This document shows positions 36,190-47,171 of a DNA stretch of 64,000 nucleotides, piece after piece. The stretch lies in the NCBI RefSeq assembly GCF_003018115.1, contig NZ_CP027457.1. One strand, given 5' to 3'. Position 1 is the first letter of the stretch, and each line of letters starts with the position of its first letter. Position numbers and translations under genes: made by a program. Under the pieces are notes generated by a model. That model was not told the origin of the DNA, ran no database searches, and worked only from the letters and a program-made list of their open reading frames with translations. This DNA is from Escherichia coli (GTDB taxonomy: Bacteria; Pseudomonadota; Gammaproteobacteria; Enterobacterales; Enterobacteriaceae).

Positions 36190-36232
36190 AAACGATCGAT
36201 AGTAACGATCGATACCTGTTTTATCGATCGTT
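36190..36232 (-). promoter_or_regulatory. flu phase-variation switch (three Dam GATC sites)
   Basis: GATC at 36194-36197, 36207-36210 and 36226-36229 in aacGATCgatagtaacGATCgatacctgttttatcGATCg, upstream of flu. Confidence 0.75.
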
Positions 36233-36348
36233 TTATTCTATTGATAGCAGAGCGGTCACGCAAGAGAAACAGGAGGGGCATGAGGTGTTTGTATCATGTT
36301 TTCAGTTGGTTAACGCAATGTAATCAGGCATTTCCCCTGGCAGACTGT

Positions 36349-37221: not shown

Positions 37222-37384
37222 ACATGTATTCCCGGTGAAAAAAGACAAAACCCCGCGCACCGGAAAGATGGCGGGGGATTCACGGAGATAATATCTGTCT
37301 GAAATTATTTGAAATGCAGGTATATGCAGCTAATTTGTATCAGCTTATTGGTACAGTACTAAACCTCATCTGACAGTCCGCTCT

Positions 37385-37399
37385 GTGCCAGGAGCGGAC
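37385..37399 (+). repeat. 15-bp direct repeat, copy 1 (gtgccaggagcggac)
   Basis: Identical 15-mer recurs at 38896-38910; this copy lies inside the hairpin gtccgct-N10-agcggac. Confidence 0.5.
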
Positions 37400-37502
37400 A
37401 TTCCGATATTGAAAAGTAAATTGTCTTGCTGTATTTTTTCAGTCATAAAAATGAATAAGGATTCTCAGATGAGTGAGATATTTGAACTATTCAGTTCTAC
37501 TG

Positions 37503-38228
37503 TCAGTCCTTAAGTTTATTCATAGAAAGCCGCTCTTGGCGTTTAAGCTCATTTAAAGTGAAAAAAGCACATTTATTAGATAAAATATAAATAGTTCCTA
37601 CTAACCGATGTAAGCGCCTCATTTTTTCGGGCATAGAGAATTCAGCATTTTTGACAAACATTAAAGAATCAACCCCAGCAGAGAACATATATTGTAAACT
37701 TTCCATATTAAAAGCCTCTAGTGGATTTACTTCGTTAATATCAATACTATTAACAGACCTCTCTATTTCGAGGTAATCTTCACTTGTCATTGAATAGTCT
37801 ATTTTATGAGCGAATTTATTGCGGATAGAATTCAGCTTAACTAAAGAATTTGCAATTGAGAGAGGTAAACCTAAAGCAACACAGATCTCCAGTTTTGGAG
37901 TAAAATATCGTGATGGTTTAACGAACTGCTCAGTACCAGGCTTCCTAACATTGTTGATGAATACTTCCAAGAAATTCTCAATCAATAGGCTAAGTCTTAG
38001 CAAGACTGATGCTTCGTCATTTATACTTAGTAAAGGTGCAAATTTTTCTGCGTCAAGAAAGAAACCGAGGTCATTATTAATCGCTACATATCCAGTTAGA
38101 TTGTTATTTGACTTCATATTCATAAAAACCTTATCTTGTATATTAGCGGCATATTGTACCATAAATTGAATCGTGGTTTGTTCTAAGAATGGACACAAGA
38201 ACTTCCTCTCCTCACTCATAAGAGACAA
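37503..38228 (-). CDS. AT-rich hypothetical protein with HEPN-like Rx4H motif
   Basis: Track ORF of 241 aa (TTG start); likelier start ATG 38123 (MNMKSNNN..., AAGG RBS); motif LNSIRNKFAHKIDY fits the HEPN Rx4-6H signature; AT-rich codon usage. Confidence 0.45.
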   Translation of the reverse strand: MSLMSEERKFLCPFLEQTTIQFMVQYAANIQDKVFMNMKSNNNLTGYVAINNDLGFFLDAEKFAPLLSINDEASVLLRLSLLIENFLEVFINNVRKPGTEQFVKPSRYFTPKLEICVALGLPLSIANSLVKLNSIRNKFAHKIDYSMTSEDYLEIERSVNSIDINEVNPLEAFNMESLQYMFSAGVDSLMFVKNAEFSMPEKMRRLHRLVGTIYILSNKCAFFTLNELKRQERLSMNKLKD

Positions 38229-38230
38229 CC

Positions 38231-38267
38231 ATACTCAAATCTCCCACATTGCAGGAGATTTGAGTAT
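38231..38267. promoter_or_regulatory. perfect 14-bp inverted repeat in the divergent control region
   Basis: atactcaaatctcc (38231-38244) and ggagatttgagtat (38254-38267) separated by 9 bp; right arm contains the recombinase RBS (aggag) and first two bases of its ATG. Confidence 0.5.
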
Positions 38268-38868
38268 GAACACGTCACCGTGGAACAAAGACCGTATCAT
38301 CGCCCAAAAAAGACCACTTCAGATATCTCATATCTGGGAGATCCGAATCCGGCTTGAACTGGAAGGTAAAACGCGCGATTTAGCTCTGTTCAATATGGCC
38401 CAGGACAGTAAGCTTCGAGGCTGTGATCTGGTCAAACTCAAAGTATCGAATGTGGCATATGGTAGCTCGGTTTCAAGCAGAGAAACGGTGTTGCAACAAA
38501 AAACCGGTAACCTTGTGCAATTCGAGATAACCAAAGGGACAAGAGAAGCTGTTGCTGCATTGATAAAGCTTGGCAATTTGCACAGTAAAGACTTCTTGTT
38601 TCGGTCTCGGGTCGGAACTAATCGGCACATATCAACCCAGCAATACAGCCGAATTTTTCATGGGTGGGTAGAAAAGCTTGGTCTCGAAGCTTCGCTGTAC
38701 AGCACACAATCCATGAGAAGAACAAAACCTTACCTAATCTACAAGAAAACCAAGAATCTCCGGATCATCCAACTTCTGTTGGGTCATAAGAAACTGGAAA
38801 GCACGATCCGTTATCTGGGCATTGAAGTCGATGATGCGTTAGAGACCTCTGAATCGATTGAAGTCTAA
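38266..38868 (+). CDS. short (200 aa) tyrosine recombinase, FimB/FimE-like catalytic-domain-only architecture
   Basis: ATG 38266 with AGGAG RBS; Arg-I in SKLRGCDL, C-terminal LLGHKKLESTIRYLG with candidate catalytic Tyr; no N-terminal core-binding domain. Confidence 0.65.
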   Translation: MNTSPWNKDRIIAQKRPLQISHIWEIRIRLELEGKTRDLALFNMAQDSKLRGCDLVKLKVSNVAYGSSVSSRETVLQQKTGNLVQFEITKGTREAVAALIKLGNLHSKDFLFRSRVGTNRHISTQQYSRIFHGWVEKLGLEASLYSTQSMRRTKPYLIYKKTKNLRIIQLLLGHKKLESTIRYLGIEVDDALETSESIEV

Positions 38869-38895
38869 GGTTGTCAGAGCTGCAATAGCAGCCCC

Positions 38896-38910
38896 GTGCC
38901 AGGAGCGGAC
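38896..38910 (+). repeat. 15-bp direct repeat, copy 2 (gtgccaggagcggac)
   Basis: Identical to 37385-37399; the two copies bracket the HEPN-like gene and the short recombinase. Confidence 0.5.
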
Positions 38911-39026
38911 CTAACTAAGTTCATACAACATTGATTATTGAAGATTAGGTCAGAAATAAATACTTTATTTTGATAATTTAGTTACGTTAGAACACCGCAA
39001 TGTACAACGTAAAAATGAGGAATAAT

Positions 39027-40388
39027 ATGACTCGGAGTGAAATAAACGTCTGGGATGAGAGAAGAGGTACCAATAGTCATCGAGTGGAGGAGATTCGATC
39101 TGAAGCTCAGCACGACCTTTCTCGATTGATTCACTCGTCTGCTTTCAGACGATTACAATCCAAAACACAGGTTCTTGGTCTGGGTGAAAGTGATTTCTAC
39201 CGCACACGACTGACTCATTCTATGGAAGTCGCACAAATCGGTTCAGGTCTTCTTGCTAAGTTGAAAATAAAATATAAAGGTAAAGAGCAAGAGCAATTTT
39301 TACCAGATAACGCTCTTATGCAGGCAGTATGTCTCGCACATGATATTGGACATCCTCCATTTGGTCACGGCGGTGAGGTAGCTCTTAACTACTGTATGCA
39401 GGATTACGGTGGTTTTGAAGGAAACGGTCAGACGCTTCGCATTCTCTCGAAACTAGATAAGTATACCTTAGAACACGGACTCGATCCTACACGCAGACTT
39501 CTGCTAGGCATACTGAAATATCCGGTTAAATACTCGGAGCTAGTGGTTACAAAAGACAGAATCCCGGTCACTATCGGATCACCAAACTGGCTCTTTAAGT
39601 CATCTGATTTTAAACCTCCAAAATGCTATCTAGATTCAGAATGCGATGTTGTAAAATTTGCTCTCTCACCATTTACTGAACAGGATCGGAGGCTTTTTAC
39701 TTCCGTTGAAGATGGTCAAACTAAATCCGATCATAAAAAAGCTTCTTATAAAGCTCTCGATACAACTATAATGGATCTTGCCGATGAAATTTCGTATTCG
39801 CTGCACGATTTGGAGGATGCTATTTCTCTCGGAATGGTGACACGAGAAATGTGGATGGAGCATTTCAGTGAACATGAAACCCTATTTACTAACTGCCATG
39901 GAAAAATATTTTCCGAAACATGCCAATCTGTAGCGGATAGCCTTTTTGGTGAAAGTTACAAGAGAAAAGAGTGCATCGGGATGCTGGTTCACCTGATGAT
40001 TACAAGCGTTGAGCTTATTACAAAGAATCCAGCATTCGAATGTGGCATGCTCAAATATAATGCGGTCCTTCCGGAAGCGGTCGAAGCACTACGGTTGAAA
40101 ATTTTCAAACTGGTCAAAAATAAAGTAATTAAGCATGAAAATGTACAGCAGCTTGAATTCAAGGGACAAAAGTTGATTGTTGAGCTCTTCGGTGTGTTGG
40201 CGAACGATCCGTGTCGGTTTCTACCTGCCTCAACGAGGGAAATTTACGAGCGGCAGACTAGCTTAGACAAGAAGGCTGGTATGCGAGTCATTTGCGACTA
40301 TGTTTCAGGGATGACTGATGACTATGCAACAAAGCTTTATGAGAAGATCCTTATTCCACGCAAAGGGTCTATTTTTGACCATCTCTAA
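39027..40388 (+). CDS. dGTPase-family HD-domain triphosphohydrolase (accessory paralog)
   Basis: 453 aa from ATG 39027 (GAGG RBS); motifs RTRLTHSMEVAQIG, LAHDIGHPPFGHGGE, C-terminal CDYVSGMTDDYA; AT-rich, not at the core dgt locus. Confidence 0.8.
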   Translation: MTRSEINVWDERRGTNSHRVEEIRSEAQHDLSRLIHSSAFRRLQSKTQVLGLGESDFYRTRLTHSMEVAQIGSGLLAKLKIKYKGKEQEQFLPDNALMQAVCLAHDIGHPPFGHGGEVALNYCMQDYGGFEGNGQTLRILSKLDKYTLEHGLDPTRRLLLGILKYPVKYSELVVTKDRIPVTIGSPNWLFKSSDFKPPKCYLDSECDVVKFALSPFTEQDRRLFTSVEDGQTKSDHKKASYKALDTTIMDLADEISYSLHDLEDAISLGMVTREMWMEHFSEHETLFTNCHGKIFSETCQSVADSLFGESYKRKECIGMLVHLMITSVELITKNPAFECGMLKYNAVLPEAVEALRLKIFKLVKNKVIKHENVQQLEFKGQKLIVELFGVLANDPCRFLPASTREIYERQTSLDKKAGMRVICDYVSGMTDDYATKLYEKILIPRKGSIFDHL

Positions 40389-41372
40389 CACGGTAAGAAT
40401 GATACTCTGAGTTCAATTGACCTATAAACATTAACCAAGGCATCTACCAGGGGGGATATCAAATCCCCCCATTCTGAATTTGTTCATGCAGAATCGGTGA
40501 ACGTTCTCATCTGAGCGTTAAACGCCAATAATCATTGATCTACACTGATCATTAATACACCTTAATACCATTAGCGTCTTACTCCGTTATGAGAACAAAC
40601 GCGAACTTCCGCTGTTCGCTCAAAGCAGACCATTCGCTCAGTTAACGCATCAGTGTCGTGCTAGAAGTAGAAGTGGTTAACAACAATGTGAGTTAATCAA
40701 CGGAGAGCAGGTCAACTCTAACCTGTATCAAAAAACAAATGTGTCATAAAGATGCCGCATGCCTTAATTTGAGTATAATTGAGACGGAAGTAGACGGTTT
40801 ATGACTAGATATTGTTGATATATAGCTATTTGAAGAGTTGTAGCGCAAGCGCATAGCCCAAACTAATAACGCTACGCCCCTTATCAAAGAGCGGCAACGA
40901 TGCACAGCTCGCACGAGACAATATTCGCACAAGAAATCAGGTTCGGAAATAACCAGCTCTGGCATGGCGGGGAGAGTATCAATGGTCAGGCTTTCGGTAA
41001 GATGCGGCGGGATGAGGTCGGCGTGGGTTACAGCAGTACAAGGTCGCCCACAGAGGGTAAGCCACAGCGTGGAATCCTCGGTTTCTATCAGGGATTCGGC
41101 GAAGCGGGCGCAGTTGTCGACCAAGACGATGAAATCCATTGTGGCATTATAAGGGAACGAACAATAGATCGAGTAAATCGCAGTCAGGGACAAGGATTGT
41201 AGTCATAGAGAAGTCTCCTGTAACGGTTTTCAGGAGGCTAATCCCGACGCCTGATTTCGCAGGCGCGGAAAGAGAGGATACTGCGACCATTAATCCGCCA
41301 CAAGTCATTTACGTACATAAATCGCGCAGTCAGATCCGACTCCCACTGTAGTTCTTGAACTTGATACCACAT

Positions 41373-45456: not shown

Positions 45457-46103
45457 ATGACTACAGCGCCAGCCTCAATCCGCAAAAAGCCCTGATCTGG
45501 CGTATCGTCCATCGGGACAATATCCCGTGGATTCTGGACAATGGTCTGCACTGCGGCAACAGCCCGGTGCAGGCTGCTAACTGGATCAATATCGGCAACC
45601 CGGAGCTTATCGGCAAGCACGCCGGACATCCGGTACCTGTCGGGACGGGCGGGACACTGCGTGACTATGTGCCATTTTATTTTACCCCCTTCTCGCCAAT
45701 GCTGATGAACATCCACAGCGGACGTGGCGGCATTAAGCAACGCCCCAATGAAGAGATCGTTATTCTGGTCAGCAGCCTGCGGCACGTGGCAGCACACGAC
45801 GTGCCCTTCGTGTTTACCGACAGCCATGCTTACTATAACTGGACCAACTACTACACCAGTCTGGATAGTCTGGACCAGATCGACTGGCCCATTTTGCAGG
45901 CACGGGACTTTCGCCGCGATCCAGACGATCCGGCTAAATTTGAACGCTATCAGGCAGAGGCGCTAATCTGGCAACACTGCCCGATCTCGCTGCTGGATGG
46001 GATAATTTGTTACAGCGAAGAGGTCAGGTTACAATTAGAACAATGGTTGTTTCAGCGTAATCTAACAATGTCCGTTCACACACGGGCTGGATTGGTACTT
46101 CTC
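45457..46103 (+). pseudogene. darT: DarT-like (DUF4433) ssDNA ADP-ribosyltransferase, N-terminus disrupted by frameshift
   Basis: ATG 45457 with AAGGG RBS reads [12 protein letters not shown] then stop; one extra A in the A5 run 45484-45488 would give [34 protein letters not shown]... continuous with track ORF 45567; candidate catalytic Glu in [10 protein letters not shown]. Confidence 0.6.
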
Positions 46104-47171
46104 ATGATCACATATACACAAGGCAATTTACTGGACGCACCGGTGGAAGCTCTGGTGAATACGGTTAATACCGTCGGTGTCATGGGGAAAGGCATCGCGT
46201 TGATGTTTAAAGAGCGCTTCCACGAAAATATGAAAGCCTATGCCCTCGCCTGCAAACAAAAGCAGGTGATCACCGGCAAAATGTTCATTACCGAAACCGG
46301 GGAACTGATGGGACCGCGCTGGATTGTTAATTTTCCGACCAAACAGCACTGGCGCGCTGACTCCCGCATGGGGTGGATTGAAGATGGCTTACAAGACTTA
46401 CGTCGATTTTTGATTGAAGAGAACGTGCAATCCATCGCCATTCCACCGCTGGGCGCAGGCAACGGTGACTTGAACTGGCCGGACGTTCGGGCGCAGATTG
46501 AATCTGCCCTTGGCGACCTTCAGGACGTTGATATCCTGATTTACCAACCAACTGAAAAATACCAGAACGTTGCCAAAAGCACTGGCGTAAAAAAGCTCAC
46601 TCCCGCCAGAGCCGCCATCGCTGAACTGGTGCGTCGCTACTGGGTATTGGGGATGGAGTGCAGCCTACTGGAAATCCAGAAACTGGCCTGGCTGTTACAA
46701 CGCGCCCTTAAGCAGCATCAACAGGACGATATCCTCAAACTGCGGTTTGAAGCTCACTATTATGGCCCCTATGCGCCCAATCTGAACCATCTGCTTAATG
46801 CGCTGGACGGCACCTATCTTAAAGCCGAGAAACGCATCCCGGACAGCCAACCGCTGGATGTGATCTGGTTTAACGATCAGAAAAAAGAACACGTTAATGC
46901 GTATCTGAACAGCGAAGCCAGAGAGTGGCTACCGGCGCTGGAGCAGGTCAGCCAGTTAATTGACGGCTTTGAATCGCCGTTTGGTCTGGAGCTGCTGGCA
47001 ACCGTAGACTGGTTGCTGAGCCGTGGCGAATGTCAACCAACACTGGATTCCGTTAAGGAAGGGCTGCACCAGTGGCCTGCGGGCGAACACTGGGCCAGCC
47101 GTAAGTTGAGGCTGTTTGATAATAATAATCTGCAATTTGCCATTAACCGCGTAATGGAGTTCCATTGCTGA
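46104..47171 (+). CDS. darG: DarG-like macrodomain antitoxin
   Basis: Starts [39 protein letters not shown] with [10 protein letters not shown] macrodomain motifs plus a C-terminal domain; in this sequence in frame with the DarT-like region, no intervening stop. Confidence 0.7.

What the first reader, a model, noticed from the sequence alone, without database searches (positions are those of the whole stretch)
38231..38267. Perfect 14-bp inverted repeat overlapping the recombinase RBS and start codon
atactcaaatctcc and ggagatttgagtat (9-bp spacer) form a perfect palindrome in the short divergent region between the HEPN-like gene and the recombinase; the right arm contains the recombinase Shine-Dalgarno and the first bases of its ATG. 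This could be an operator for a dimeric regulator, a recombinase binding site, or an RNA hairpin occluding translation initiation.
Basis: seen in the sequence. Interest (0 to 1): 0.55.

Follow-up and report, generated by a model that had tools for sequence, protein, structure and literature searches.

The report
Hairpin hiding a recombinase start codon
The palindrome is real and most likely folds the messenger RNA of a small mobile recombinase so that its ribosome-binding site and start codon are hidden; the recombinase belongs to what looks like an undescribed cut-and-swap system moving anti-phage genes between prophages, genomic islands and plasmids.

Summary
The arms are 15 nt, not 14 (38230-38244 and 38254-38268), around a 9-nt loop. 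The right arm holds the GGAG ribosome-binding site and the whole ATG.

The hairpin is tied to the translation start. In 81 homologues from Gamma- and Betaproteobacteria the arm sequences differ, but the ribosome-binding site is paired in 93%, against 58% of control genes.

It is not a recombination site. The real candidate sites are 24-bp inverted-arm sites of two spacer types, here called A and B:
- A sites: 37376-37399 and 38887-38910.
- B sites: 38203-38226 and 40607-40630.

These sites bound the conserved recombinase block and the neighbouring cargo modules (HEPN-like gene, anti-phage dGTPase). The dGTPase module recurs in another E. coli prophage, and its homology ends exactly at these sites.

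Best explanation: an RNA fold-back lock on recombinase translation, as in IS200 and IS10. This is inferred, not shown. No promoter was found, and wobble-pair analysis does not favour either strand.

The window's own recombinase copy looks decayed (H148Q in the catalytic HxxR box). I found no description of the module system in the literature I searched.

The parts
38230..38244 (+). Left (5') arm of the palindrome, CATACTCAAATCTCC. It carries the anti-ribosome-binding-site element CTCC and CAT, the complement of the start codon.
38245..38253 (+). 9-nt loop CACATTGCA. It is found in the flipped orientation (TGCAATGTG) in a decayed copy present in 43 E. coli records.
38254..38268 (+). Right (3') arm, GGAGATTTGAGTATG: ribosome-binding site GGAG, an 8-nt gap, and the ATG of the recombinase.
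38266..38868 (+). Recombinase gene (200 aa). The protein is essentially only the catalytic domain of a tyrosine recombinase (Pfam PF00589, residues 34-184). The window's copy has H148Q in the HxxR box and eight other changes at nearly invariant positions.
38203..38226 (+). Site B1, the left end of the conserved recombinase block: TTCCTCTC-CTCACTCA-TAAGAGAC. The enterobacterial consensus is GTCCGCTC-CTCGCTCA-TGAGGGAC. It ends 3 bp before the palindrome.
38887..38910 (+). Site A2, the right end of the recombinase block: TAGCAGCC-CGTGCCAG-GAGCGGAC. Its degenerate inner arm lies inside a terminator-like stem-loop, GCTGC-aata-GCAGC (38879-38892).
37376..37399 (+). Site A1, a full site: GTCCGCTC-TGTGCCAG-GAGCGGAC. 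It is a direct repeat of A2. It is also the point where thousands of E. coli islands of the CP4-44 prophage type stop being alike after the yeeP GTPase gene.
   Evidence: (I12, D4)
40607..40630 (-). Site B2, with a type-B spacer. Read on the - strand it is TCTGCT-TTGAGCGAAC-AGCGGA. It closes the dGTPase module.
37503..38123 (-). Cargo gene between A1 and B1: a HEPN-like protein with the motif RNKFAH. The conserved start is M33 of the annotated ORF.
39027..40388 (+). Cargo gene between A2 and B2: an anti-phage dGTPase.

Best explanation
The palindrome is the DNA image of an RNA hairpin in the 5' leader of the recombinase mRNA. Any transcript that contains both arms folds into a 15-bp stem that buries the ribosome-binding site GGAG and the AUG, so ribosomes cannot start.

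The gene is the only gene of a 708-bp mobile block (38203-38910) that sits between variable, often strongly expressed cargo genes. The hairpin therefore keeps the recombinase switched off, or at a trickle, whatever transcription enters from outside. This is the same logic as the stem-loop in the 5' UTR of IS200 tnpA that sequesters the ribosome-binding site, and as IS10 fold-back inhibition.

What is shown: the structure, its position on the translation start, and its conservation by position and pairing rather than by sequence across the family.

What is inferred: that it acts as RNA on the + strand, that it lowers translation, and how (or whether) the block is ever relieved.
For: 1. A perfect 15-bp stem covers the ribosome-binding site and the ATG, at -24 to -28 kcal/mol, z = -5.4 to -7.2.

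2. In 81 homologues (57-93% aa identity; Enterobacterales, Alteromonadales, Pseudomonas, Xanthomonadales, Burkholderiales, Nitrospira) the ribosome-binding-site window is paired in the minimum-energy fold in 93%. The figure for 168 control genes with a ribosome-binding site from the same loci is 58% (Fisher p = 5e-9). The core motif is fully paired as the 3' arm in 52% against 14% (p = 5e-10).

3. The arm sequences differ between lineages: CATACTCAAATCTCC/GGAGATTTGAGTATG; GTCCTCC/GGAGGAC; TGAATTCCTT/AAGGAATTCA; TGATGATC/GATCATCA. The pairing is kept, the sequence is not.

4. Without any positional constraint, the best inverted repeat in -100..+40 has its 3' arm on the ribosome-binding site in 39 of 73 unique leaders. 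There is a sharp peak at -10..0: 32 of 73, against 10 or fewer in every other 10-nt bin.

5. An outer CAU/AUG helix that pairs the start codon is invariant in 13 enterobacterial and alteromonad leaders. Two inner pairs show compensatory changes.

6. The hairpin keeps its distance to the start codon, but not to the B site, which lies 63-174 nt upstream.

7. The enterobacterial gene copies are under purifying selection (dN/dS 0.04-0.09). The protein is therefore used, and the hairpin is a lock rather than a tombstone.

8. There is a documented precedent in IS200, where mutating the stem raises 30S ribosomal subunit binding, expression and transposition (PMC4513863).
Against: No expression data exist.

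No sigma-70-like promoter was found between the B site and the ATG. The only + strand candidate (38108-38137) lies in variable DNA and would transcribe both arms. An IS10-style escape transcript is therefore unsupported, and it is unclear how a -24 kcal/mol lock is ever opened.

The strand test does not favour the + strand. The reverse complement folds better in 53 of 78 leaders (Wilcoxon p = 0.001). A.C mismatches, which would be G.U pairs on the - strand, outnumber G.U pairs 79 to 60. The all-wobble pattern is partly a by-product of how RNAalifold chooses pairs.

58% of control genes also have a 'paired' ribosome-binding site by the loose measure.

The covariance model built from the enterobacterial and alteromonad leaders does not reach the other lineages. 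Family-wide covariation therefore rests on per-sequence folds, not on one alignment.
Confidence: 0.6

Rival explanations
1. The element works on the - strand or on both strands. The same hairpin, read leftwards, would terminate or stabilise a transcript. One possibility is an antisense RNA to the recombinase start, like art200 of IS200 or RNA-OUT of IS10. Another is an insulator that stops transcription leaving the recombinase block towards the cargo.
For: The terminator scan scores the - strand palindrome followed by TTGTCTCTTA as terminator-like. Family-wide, the - strand folds are slightly more stable and carry more G.U pairs. IS200 has such an antisense RNA opposite its 5' UTR. Remnants that have lost the recombinase keep the B site and the palindrome.
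Against: No - strand promoter-like site was found in 37300-39100. The T-rich tail is weak and is absent in other lineages, for example Pseudomonas. This reading does not explain why the element is locked to the ribosome-binding site and AUG. The remnants may simply be young.
Confidence: 0.13
2. The palindrome is a DNA operator. A dimeric protein, either a regulator or the recombinase itself, binds it and represses the recombinase and the divergent promoters.
For: It has perfect dyad symmetry and lies in a divergent intergenic region. It is as well conserved among Enterobacterales as the coding sequence, with pairwise identity 0.89-0.96.
Against: The conserved block encodes only the recombinase, and the neighbours vary. 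The arms change completely between lineages, although the recombinase stays 57-60% identical and its flanking site motif AGCGGAC is retained. At 39 bp, with 15-bp arms and a 9-bp centre, it is long for a dimer operator. No promoter overlaps it.
Confidence: 0.1
3. The palindrome is a recombination site or accessory site of the recombinase, either a lox-like core or a folded single-strand site like integron attC.
For: It has lox-like geometry (inverted arms around a short centre) and lies 3 bp from site B1. The loop is flipped in one lineage, as would follow from an inversion within the palindrome.
Against: - The spacer is 9 nt, not 6-8.
- The arms are unrelated to the A/B arms.
- There is no second copy in the window or elsewhere in the loci.
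- Homology between loci passes through it and breaks at B1.
- Module boundaries map to the A and B sites.
- The distance to the B site is variable.
- The sequence is not conserved together with the protein.
- The flip is confined to one decayed copy in 43 records, out of 838 records with a match.
Confidence: 0.07
4. The palindrome has no function: it is a chance or hitch-hiking palindrome.
For: No direct functional data exist. Within E. coli the whole block is young and uniformly conserved.
Against: About 0.002 such repeats are expected by chance in the window. An equivalent hairpin sits at the same place in distant lineages with different sequences.
Confidence: 0.05

Closest known systems
Stem-loop in the 5' UTR of IS200 tnpA that sequesters the ribosome-binding site (PMC4513863)
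   Same: An inverted repeat just inside the end of a mobile element pairs an anti-ribosome-binding-site segment with the site of the element's only gene. In IS200 this strongly limits translation and mobility.
   Different: IS200 encodes a Y1 HUH transposase, not a tyrosine recombinase. Its stem is long and imperfect, and it works together with an antisense RNA and a separate terminator hairpin. Here there is a single perfect 15-bp stem that also pairs the AUG, and no antisense RNA or terminator has been shown.
IS10/Tn10 fold-back inhibition and the analogous IS50 mechanism (recalled from my own knowledge: Davis, Simons and Kleckner 1985; not read here)
   Same: Transcripts entering from outside contain a segment complementary to the translation start and are not translated. 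This protects the element from activation by neighbouring promoters.
   Different: In IS10 the element's own promoter lies downstream of the 5' arm, so its own mRNA escapes. No such promoter could be identified here.
Integrons (IntI, attI, attC cassettes)
   Same: A tyrosine recombinase gene sits next to an array of promoter-poor cargo units bounded by short recombination sites. The cargo is rich in anti-phage genes.
   Different: The recombinase is 200 aa and matches integron/Xer models only weakly, below their cut-offs. The sites are 24-bp double-strand-type sites with 8-bp arms and two spacer types, not folded attC hairpins. The recombinase gene is itself bounded by the sites, and cargo lies on both sides of it.
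Acinetobacter pdif modules
   Same: Modules are bounded by inversely oriented tyrosine-recombinase sites. The same module occurs in different replicons, with breakpoints at the sites.
   Different: pdif modules rely on the host XerC/XerD and have no recombinase of their own. The sites are unrelated in sequence (11-6-11 dif-like). Here a dedicated mini-recombinase travels as one of the modules.
Cre/lox recombinase-mediated cassette exchange with heterospecific spacers (an engineering practice)
   Same: Two site types share their arms but differ at 2 spacer positions (CTCGCTCA against CTGGCACA, read on the same strand). They flank each unit in inverted orientation. This arrangement favours exchange over excision or inversion.
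   Different: This is a natural system. The incompatibility of the A and B spacers is inferred from sequence only.
FimB/FimE-type small tyrosine recombinases
   Same: About 200 aa, with little more than the catalytic domain.
   Different: Sequence similarity is only marginal (NF007371, E = 5e-4, 20 bits against a cut-off of 222). FimB/FimE invert one promoter segment and do not sit in cargo arrays.

Membership tests
Leader hairpin that sequesters the ribosome-binding site and start codon of a mobile-element gene (IS200/IS10 type) | A segment upstream in the same transcript is complementary to the ribosome-binding site and/or the AUG | tested here: met
   The 15-bp perfect stem includes GGAG and ATG.
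Leader hairpin that sequesters the ribosome-binding site and start codon of a mobile-element gene (IS200/IS10 type) | The pairing is maintained in homologues although the sequence changes | tested here: met
   93% of 81 homologues against 58% of controls. Different arm sequences. Positional peak at -10..0. Compensatory pairs in the enterobacterial and alteromonad subset.
Leader hairpin that sequesters the ribosome-binding site and start codon of a mobile-element gene (IS200/IS10 type) | The structure acts as RNA of the coding strand (wobble pairs tolerated on that strand only) | tested here: inconclusive
   G.U 60 against A.C 79. The - strand folds are slightly more stable.
Leader hairpin that sequesters the ribosome-binding site and start codon of a mobile-element gene (IS200/IS10 type) | The element's own promoter lies downstream of the 5' arm, so that only read-through transcripts are blocked (IS10 variant) | tested here: inconclusive
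   No sigma-70-like site lies between B1 and the ATG. The simple consensus scan may miss weak promoters or those of other types.
Leader hairpin that sequesters the ribosome-binding site and start codon of a mobile-element gene (IS200/IS10 type) | Breaking the stem raises ribosome binding and translation | not testable with these tools
   Needs reporter fusions or toeprinting.
Core recombination site of a tyrosine recombinase (lox/FRT/dif type) | Two inverted binding arms around a 6-8 bp crossover region | tested here: not met
   The spacer is 9 nt and the arms are 15 nt.
Core recombination site of a tyrosine recombinase (lox/FRT/dif type) | Partner copies exist, and rearrangement breakpoints map to the site | tested here: not met
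   No second copy. Breakpoints map to the A/B sites instead.
Core recombination site of a tyrosine recombinase (lox/FRT/dif type) | The arm sequence is conserved together with the recombinase | tested here: not met
   The arms differ between lineages. The AGCGGAC arm of the A/B sites is found within 90 nt after the stop in 35 of 83 loci, against 10.7% of random windows.
Operator of a dimeric transcription regulator | A cognate regulator is encoded in linkage, and the operator overlaps a promoter | tested here: not met
   The block encodes only the recombinase, the neighbours vary, and no promoter-like site overlaps it.
Intrinsic transcription terminator | A G+C-rich stem followed by a U tract | tested here: inconclusive
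   + strand: no T tract. - strand: scored terminator-like, with 7 of 19 G-C pairs and the tail TTGTCTCTTA. The tail is not conserved in other lineages.
Site-bounded gene-module system (pdif-module or integron-like); this is the context of the palindrome, not the palindrome itself | Units are bounded by short recombination-type sites in a regular orientation | tested here: met
   The window reads A1-cargo-B1-recombinase-A2-cargo-B2. The same pattern and closely spaced B-A double sites occur in L002-L008, L020, L084 and L088-L090.
Site-bounded gene-module system (pdif-module or integron-like); this is the context of the palindrome, not the palindrome itself | The same unit occurs in different contexts, with homology ending at the sites | tested here: met
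   The dGTPase module 38896-40607 is 97% identical to L088 148-1858. Its edges lie in the A spacer and at the B arm. The recombinase block has different neighbours in L002 and L003.
Site-bounded gene-module system (pdif-module or integron-like); this is the context of the palindrome, not the palindrome itself | The recombinase catalyses recombination at these sites | not testable with these tools
   Needs recombination assays. The window's copy carries H148Q.

The most novel reading that the evidence does not exclude
The hairpin is the off-switch of a self-encoded module-exchange system that has not been described.

The system would work as follows. A 200-aa tyrosine recombinase made of little more than the catalytic domain travels as its own 708-bp module. 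It acts on two heterospecific 24-bp site types, A and B, which share their arms and differ at 2 spacer positions. Through them it swaps cargo modules, mostly anti-phage genes, between P2-like phages, lambdoid prophages, CP4-44-type islands and plasmids across Proteobacteria.

Because the recombinase module can land next to any promoter, a hairpin over the ribosome-binding site and AUG is kept in every lineage to hold it silent. It may be relieved only in a particular configuration or condition.
Probability: 0.4. Interest if true: 0.8.

Novelty: new variant of a known kind. Interest (0 to 1): 0.6.

Why it matters
How defence genes move between the known hot spots of prophages, satellites, islands and plasmids is an open question.

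This locus gives a concrete, testable candidate:
- a tiny recombinase present in 960 of 5426 complete E. coli genomes, with more than 7900 relatives;
- two defined site types that mark module edges;
- a built-in translational lock.

If the lock and the sites behave as inferred, the sites could be used to find module boundaries, and therefore new defence cargo, directly from sequence. The recombinase with its heterospecific sites would also be a compact natural cassette-exchange tool.

If only the hairpin part holds, it is one more example of a mobile element protecting itself from outside transcription. That would be useful, but it would not be surprising.

Tried and rejected
- Partner copies of the palindrome. 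Only chance-level near matches were found in the window and none in the loci, so the lox-like reading was dropped.
- The - strand ATG in the B1 spacer, or the mini-ORF MVVSYE (ATG 38232-38230), as a shared translation start for cargo genes. Only the window has a long ORF there, and that start is an annotation over-extension.
- G.U wobble as proof of a + strand RNA. It looked good in the RNAalifold subset but failed family-wide.
- A covariance model to align all lineages. It recovers only Enterobacterales and Alteromonadales.
- A promoter inside or next to the hairpin. None reached the scan's threshold. By eye, CATACT and CACATT are poor -10 candidates and lack a -35 element.
- Rfam: no family matched.
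- PADLOC: the recombinase and the HEPN-like protein are not in it.
- Whether the HEPN-like cargo is site-bounded elsewhere. A 70%-identical homologue sits in a lambdoid phage with no room for A/B sites beside it.
- Literature. Six searches, including the site sequences as strings, found no description of the recombinase family, the sites or the module system. The library is incomplete, so this is not proof of novelty.

Full report
**Where the window comes from.** The window is 100% identical to E. coli 2014C-4135 (NZ_CP027310), in an island of the CP4-44 prophage type. The gene order is Ag43, the YeeP-like GTPase, a hypothetical HEPN-like gene (- strand), a 200-aa tyrosine recombinase (38266-38868, + strand), an anti-phage dGTPase, and then a type I restriction-modification operon with darTG embedded in it.

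**The observation.** The inverted repeat is real. The arms are 38230-38244 and 38254-38268, 15 nt each and perfectly complementary, around a 9-nt loop.
- The right arm is GGAG, then 8 nt, then the whole ATG of the recombinase.
- It is the longest perfect close inverted repeat in the window. I estimate about 0.002 such repeats by chance.
- As RNA it forms a 15-bp stem (-28.2 kcal/mol for 38200-38300, z = -5.4).
- No Rfam family matches.

**The gene.** The protein is essentially only a catalytic domain (Pfam PF00589, residues 34-184).
- It has the R, K, HxxR, H and Y catalytic positions in the family alignment.
- It matches Xer and integron-integrase models only far below their cut-offs. The closest solved structure is XerD, at 26 bits.
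- The family is large: more than 7900 proteins at E < 1e-10. It is unusually conserved, at 57-93% identity across Gamma- and Betaproteobacteria.
- Enterobacterial copies evolve under purifying selection (dN/dS 0.04-0.09).
- The window's copy is an outlier (dN/dS 0.10-0.28). It has changes at nine nearly invariant positions, including H148Q in the HxxR box, and may be inactive.

**The block and its ends.** In other E. coli the recombinase has different neighbours on both sides. In N779 it lies inside a Qin-type prophage. In CUVET23 it lies next to a dynamin-like gene.
- Alignments show a conserved block from -58 to +645 relative to the ATG, with sharp edges.
- The edges are 24-bp sites with palindromic 8-bp arms (GTCCGCTC ... 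GAGCGGAC) around 8-bp spacers of two kinds. Type A has the spacer TGTGCCAG. Type B, read on the other strand, has TGAGCGAG.
- Read on one strand, the two spacers differ at 2 of 8 positions.
- The window reads: A1 (37376-37399), HEPN-like gene, B1 (38203-38226), palindrome and recombinase, A2 (38887-38910), dGTPase, B2 (40607-40630).
- The same plan is visible in Pseudomonas, Xanthomonadales and Burkholderiales: a G+C-rich stem-loop followed by ...GGCCAAnAGCGGAC after the stop, and the inverted counterpart upstream. The AGCGGAC arm is found within 90 nt after the stop in 35 of 83 loci, against 10.7% of random windows.

**Evidence that the sites are real module borders.**
- The dGTPase unit 38896-40607 recurs at 97% identity in a Qin-like prophage of E. 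coli E1. Homology begins inside the A spacer and stops at the B arm.
- Thousands of E. coli islands share the sequence from yeeP up to A1 and diverge right after it.
- A P2-like Yersinia phage carries an A site, one cargo gene, and a B site with the palindrome, between its tail fibre assembly and tail sheath (gpFI) genes.
- Cargo annotated next to these sites includes dGTPase, SMODS plus SLATT, GIY-YIG, DUF2971, DUF4365, dynamin-like and MBL-fold genes.
- The block is in 960 of 5426 complete E. coli genomes and on plasmids.

**What the palindrome is not.**
- It has no partner copy.
- Homology between loci runs through it and breaks at B1, 27 bp to its left.
- Its arms are unrelated to the A/B arms, and its spacer is 9 nt.
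- Its sequence is not conserved between lineages, although the protein and the site arm are.
- Its distance to the B site varies from 63 to 174 nt.

A recombination-site role is therefore unlikely. An operator is unlikely too. Nothing but the recombinase is encoded in the conserved block, and no promoter-like site overlaps it.

**What it most likely is.** In 81 homologues I folded -55..+12.
- The ribosome-binding-site window is paired in 93%, against 58% of 168 control genes from the same loci (p = 5e-9). The core motif is fully paired as a 3' arm in 52% against 14% (p = 5e-10).
- The arms differ widely between lineages.
- With no positional constraint, the best inverted repeat in -100..+40 puts its 3' arm on the ribosome-binding site in 39 of 73 leaders, with a sharp peak at -10..0.
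- In 13 enterobacterial and alteromonad leaders, RNAalifold predicts an invariant CAU/AUG helix and a 7-bp helix on the ribosome-binding site, with two compensatory pairs.

The constant feature is thus pairing of the translation start, which points to control of translation. The E. coli version is an unusually long and perfect member. The documented analogue is the IS200 tnpA leader, where a stem-loop that sequesters the ribosome-binding site limits 30S ribosomal subunit binding and transposition (PMC4513863). IS10 fold-back inhibition follows the same logic (recalled from my own knowledge). For a recombinase module that can sit beside any cargo promoter, such a lock makes sense.

**Caveats.**
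- I could not find the recombinase's promoter. I therefore cannot say whether its own mRNA escapes the lock or how a -24 kcal/mol stem is opened.
- The wobble test does not support the + strand. Reverse complements fold slightly better (53 against 24 of 78), and A.C mismatches outnumber G.U pairs.
- A role on the - strand remains possible, as a weak terminator-like signal or as the end of an antisense RNA.
- Remnants that have lost the recombinase but keep B1 plus the palindrome occur in Klebsiella plasmids (most of the 565 Klebsiella records matched), in P2-like phages and in E. coli prophages. They may be young debris, or they may hint at a second function.
- In one such remnant, present in 43 E. 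coli records, the 9-nt loop is flipped.

The HEPN-like ORF is annotated to start at 38219, inside the B1 spacer. Its homologues start 32 codons later. The weak Pfam hit (HEPN_RiboL-PSP, E = 1e-3) and the RNKFAH motif fit a HEPN protein. The - strand mini-ORF created by the symmetry of the palindrome is not conserved.

**Novelty.** As a hairpin that hides a translation start in a mobile element, this is a known kind of device in a new family. The surrounding system is a mini-recombinase module with two heterospecific site types that bound defence-rich cargo in phages, islands and plasmids. It resembles pdif modules, integrons and engineered cassette exchange, but it is identical to none of them. 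I found no description of it, and the searched library is incomplete.

Noticed in passing
window 37376-37399, 38203-38226, 38887-38910, 40607-40630; also L002-L008, L020, L084, L088-L090: 24-bp sites with arms GTCCGCTC/GAGCGGAC and two spacer types (A: TGTGCCAG; B: TGAGCGAG on the other strand) bound the recombinase block and the neighbouring cargo modules. Closely spaced B-A double sites, about 17 bp apart, mark module junctions that have no recombinase.
   Followed up: partly
window 38896-40607 compared with L088 148-1858: The dGTPase module is 97% identical in a different context (a Qin-like prophage of E. coli E1). Homology starts in the A spacer and ends at the B arm.
   Followed up: yes
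L086 3001-3234 (E. coli AR435) and 42 further E. coli records: In a decayed copy with an internal deletion of the recombinase, the 9-nt loop of the palindrome is reversed (TGCAATGTG instead of CACATTGCA) while both arms are unchanged. This is a flip of the centre of a perfect palindrome, and its mechanism is unknown.
   Followed up: partly
L084 3501-3574 (Yersinia phage vB_YpM_22), L085 4001-4087 (Klebsiella plasmid pL22-1), L087, L088: Remnants consist of the B site, the palindrome and the first 20-55 nt of the recombinase gene, without the rest. In two unrelated contexts the remnant ends at the same base (...CACCGTGGAA). Remnants of this q3-89 type make up most of the 565 Klebsiella plasmid records matched.
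   Followed up: partly
window 38266-38868: The window's recombinase copy has substitutions at nine nearly invariant positions, including H148Q in the catalytic HxxR box. Its dN/dS is raised (0.10-0.28 against 0.04-0.09), so it is probably an inactive or decaying copy. Only 5 genomes carry this variant.
   Followed up: partly
window 38124-38219: The RefSeq start of the HEPN-like ORF (38219) lies inside the B1 spacer. Homologues start at the residue encoded at 38123-38121, so the first 32 codons are probably not translated.
   Followed up: yes
window 38423-38442: A stretch inside the recombinase ORF (GTGATCTGGTCAAACTCAAA) is 80% complementary to 38259-38278, which covers the right arm and start codon. 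It repeats ACTCAAA from the left arm and could be an alternative pairing partner. It may equally be a by-product of the conserved KLK codons.
   Followed up: no
window 36190-36233: Nested perfect inverted repeats containing GATC (AAACGATCGATA / TATCGATCGTTT) lie upstream of the Ag43 gene. This is presumably the known Dam/OxyR phase-variation region of agn43.
   Followed up: no
window about 45492-47171 (L001 20293-21972): A darT (frameshifted) and darG pair is inserted between the S and R subunit genes of the type I restriction-modification operon.
   Followed up: no
L091-L094: A 70%-identical homologue of the HEPN-like cargo protein sits in a lambdoid phage between replication genes and the small terminase. 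This suggests a phage origin for this cargo.
   Followed up: no
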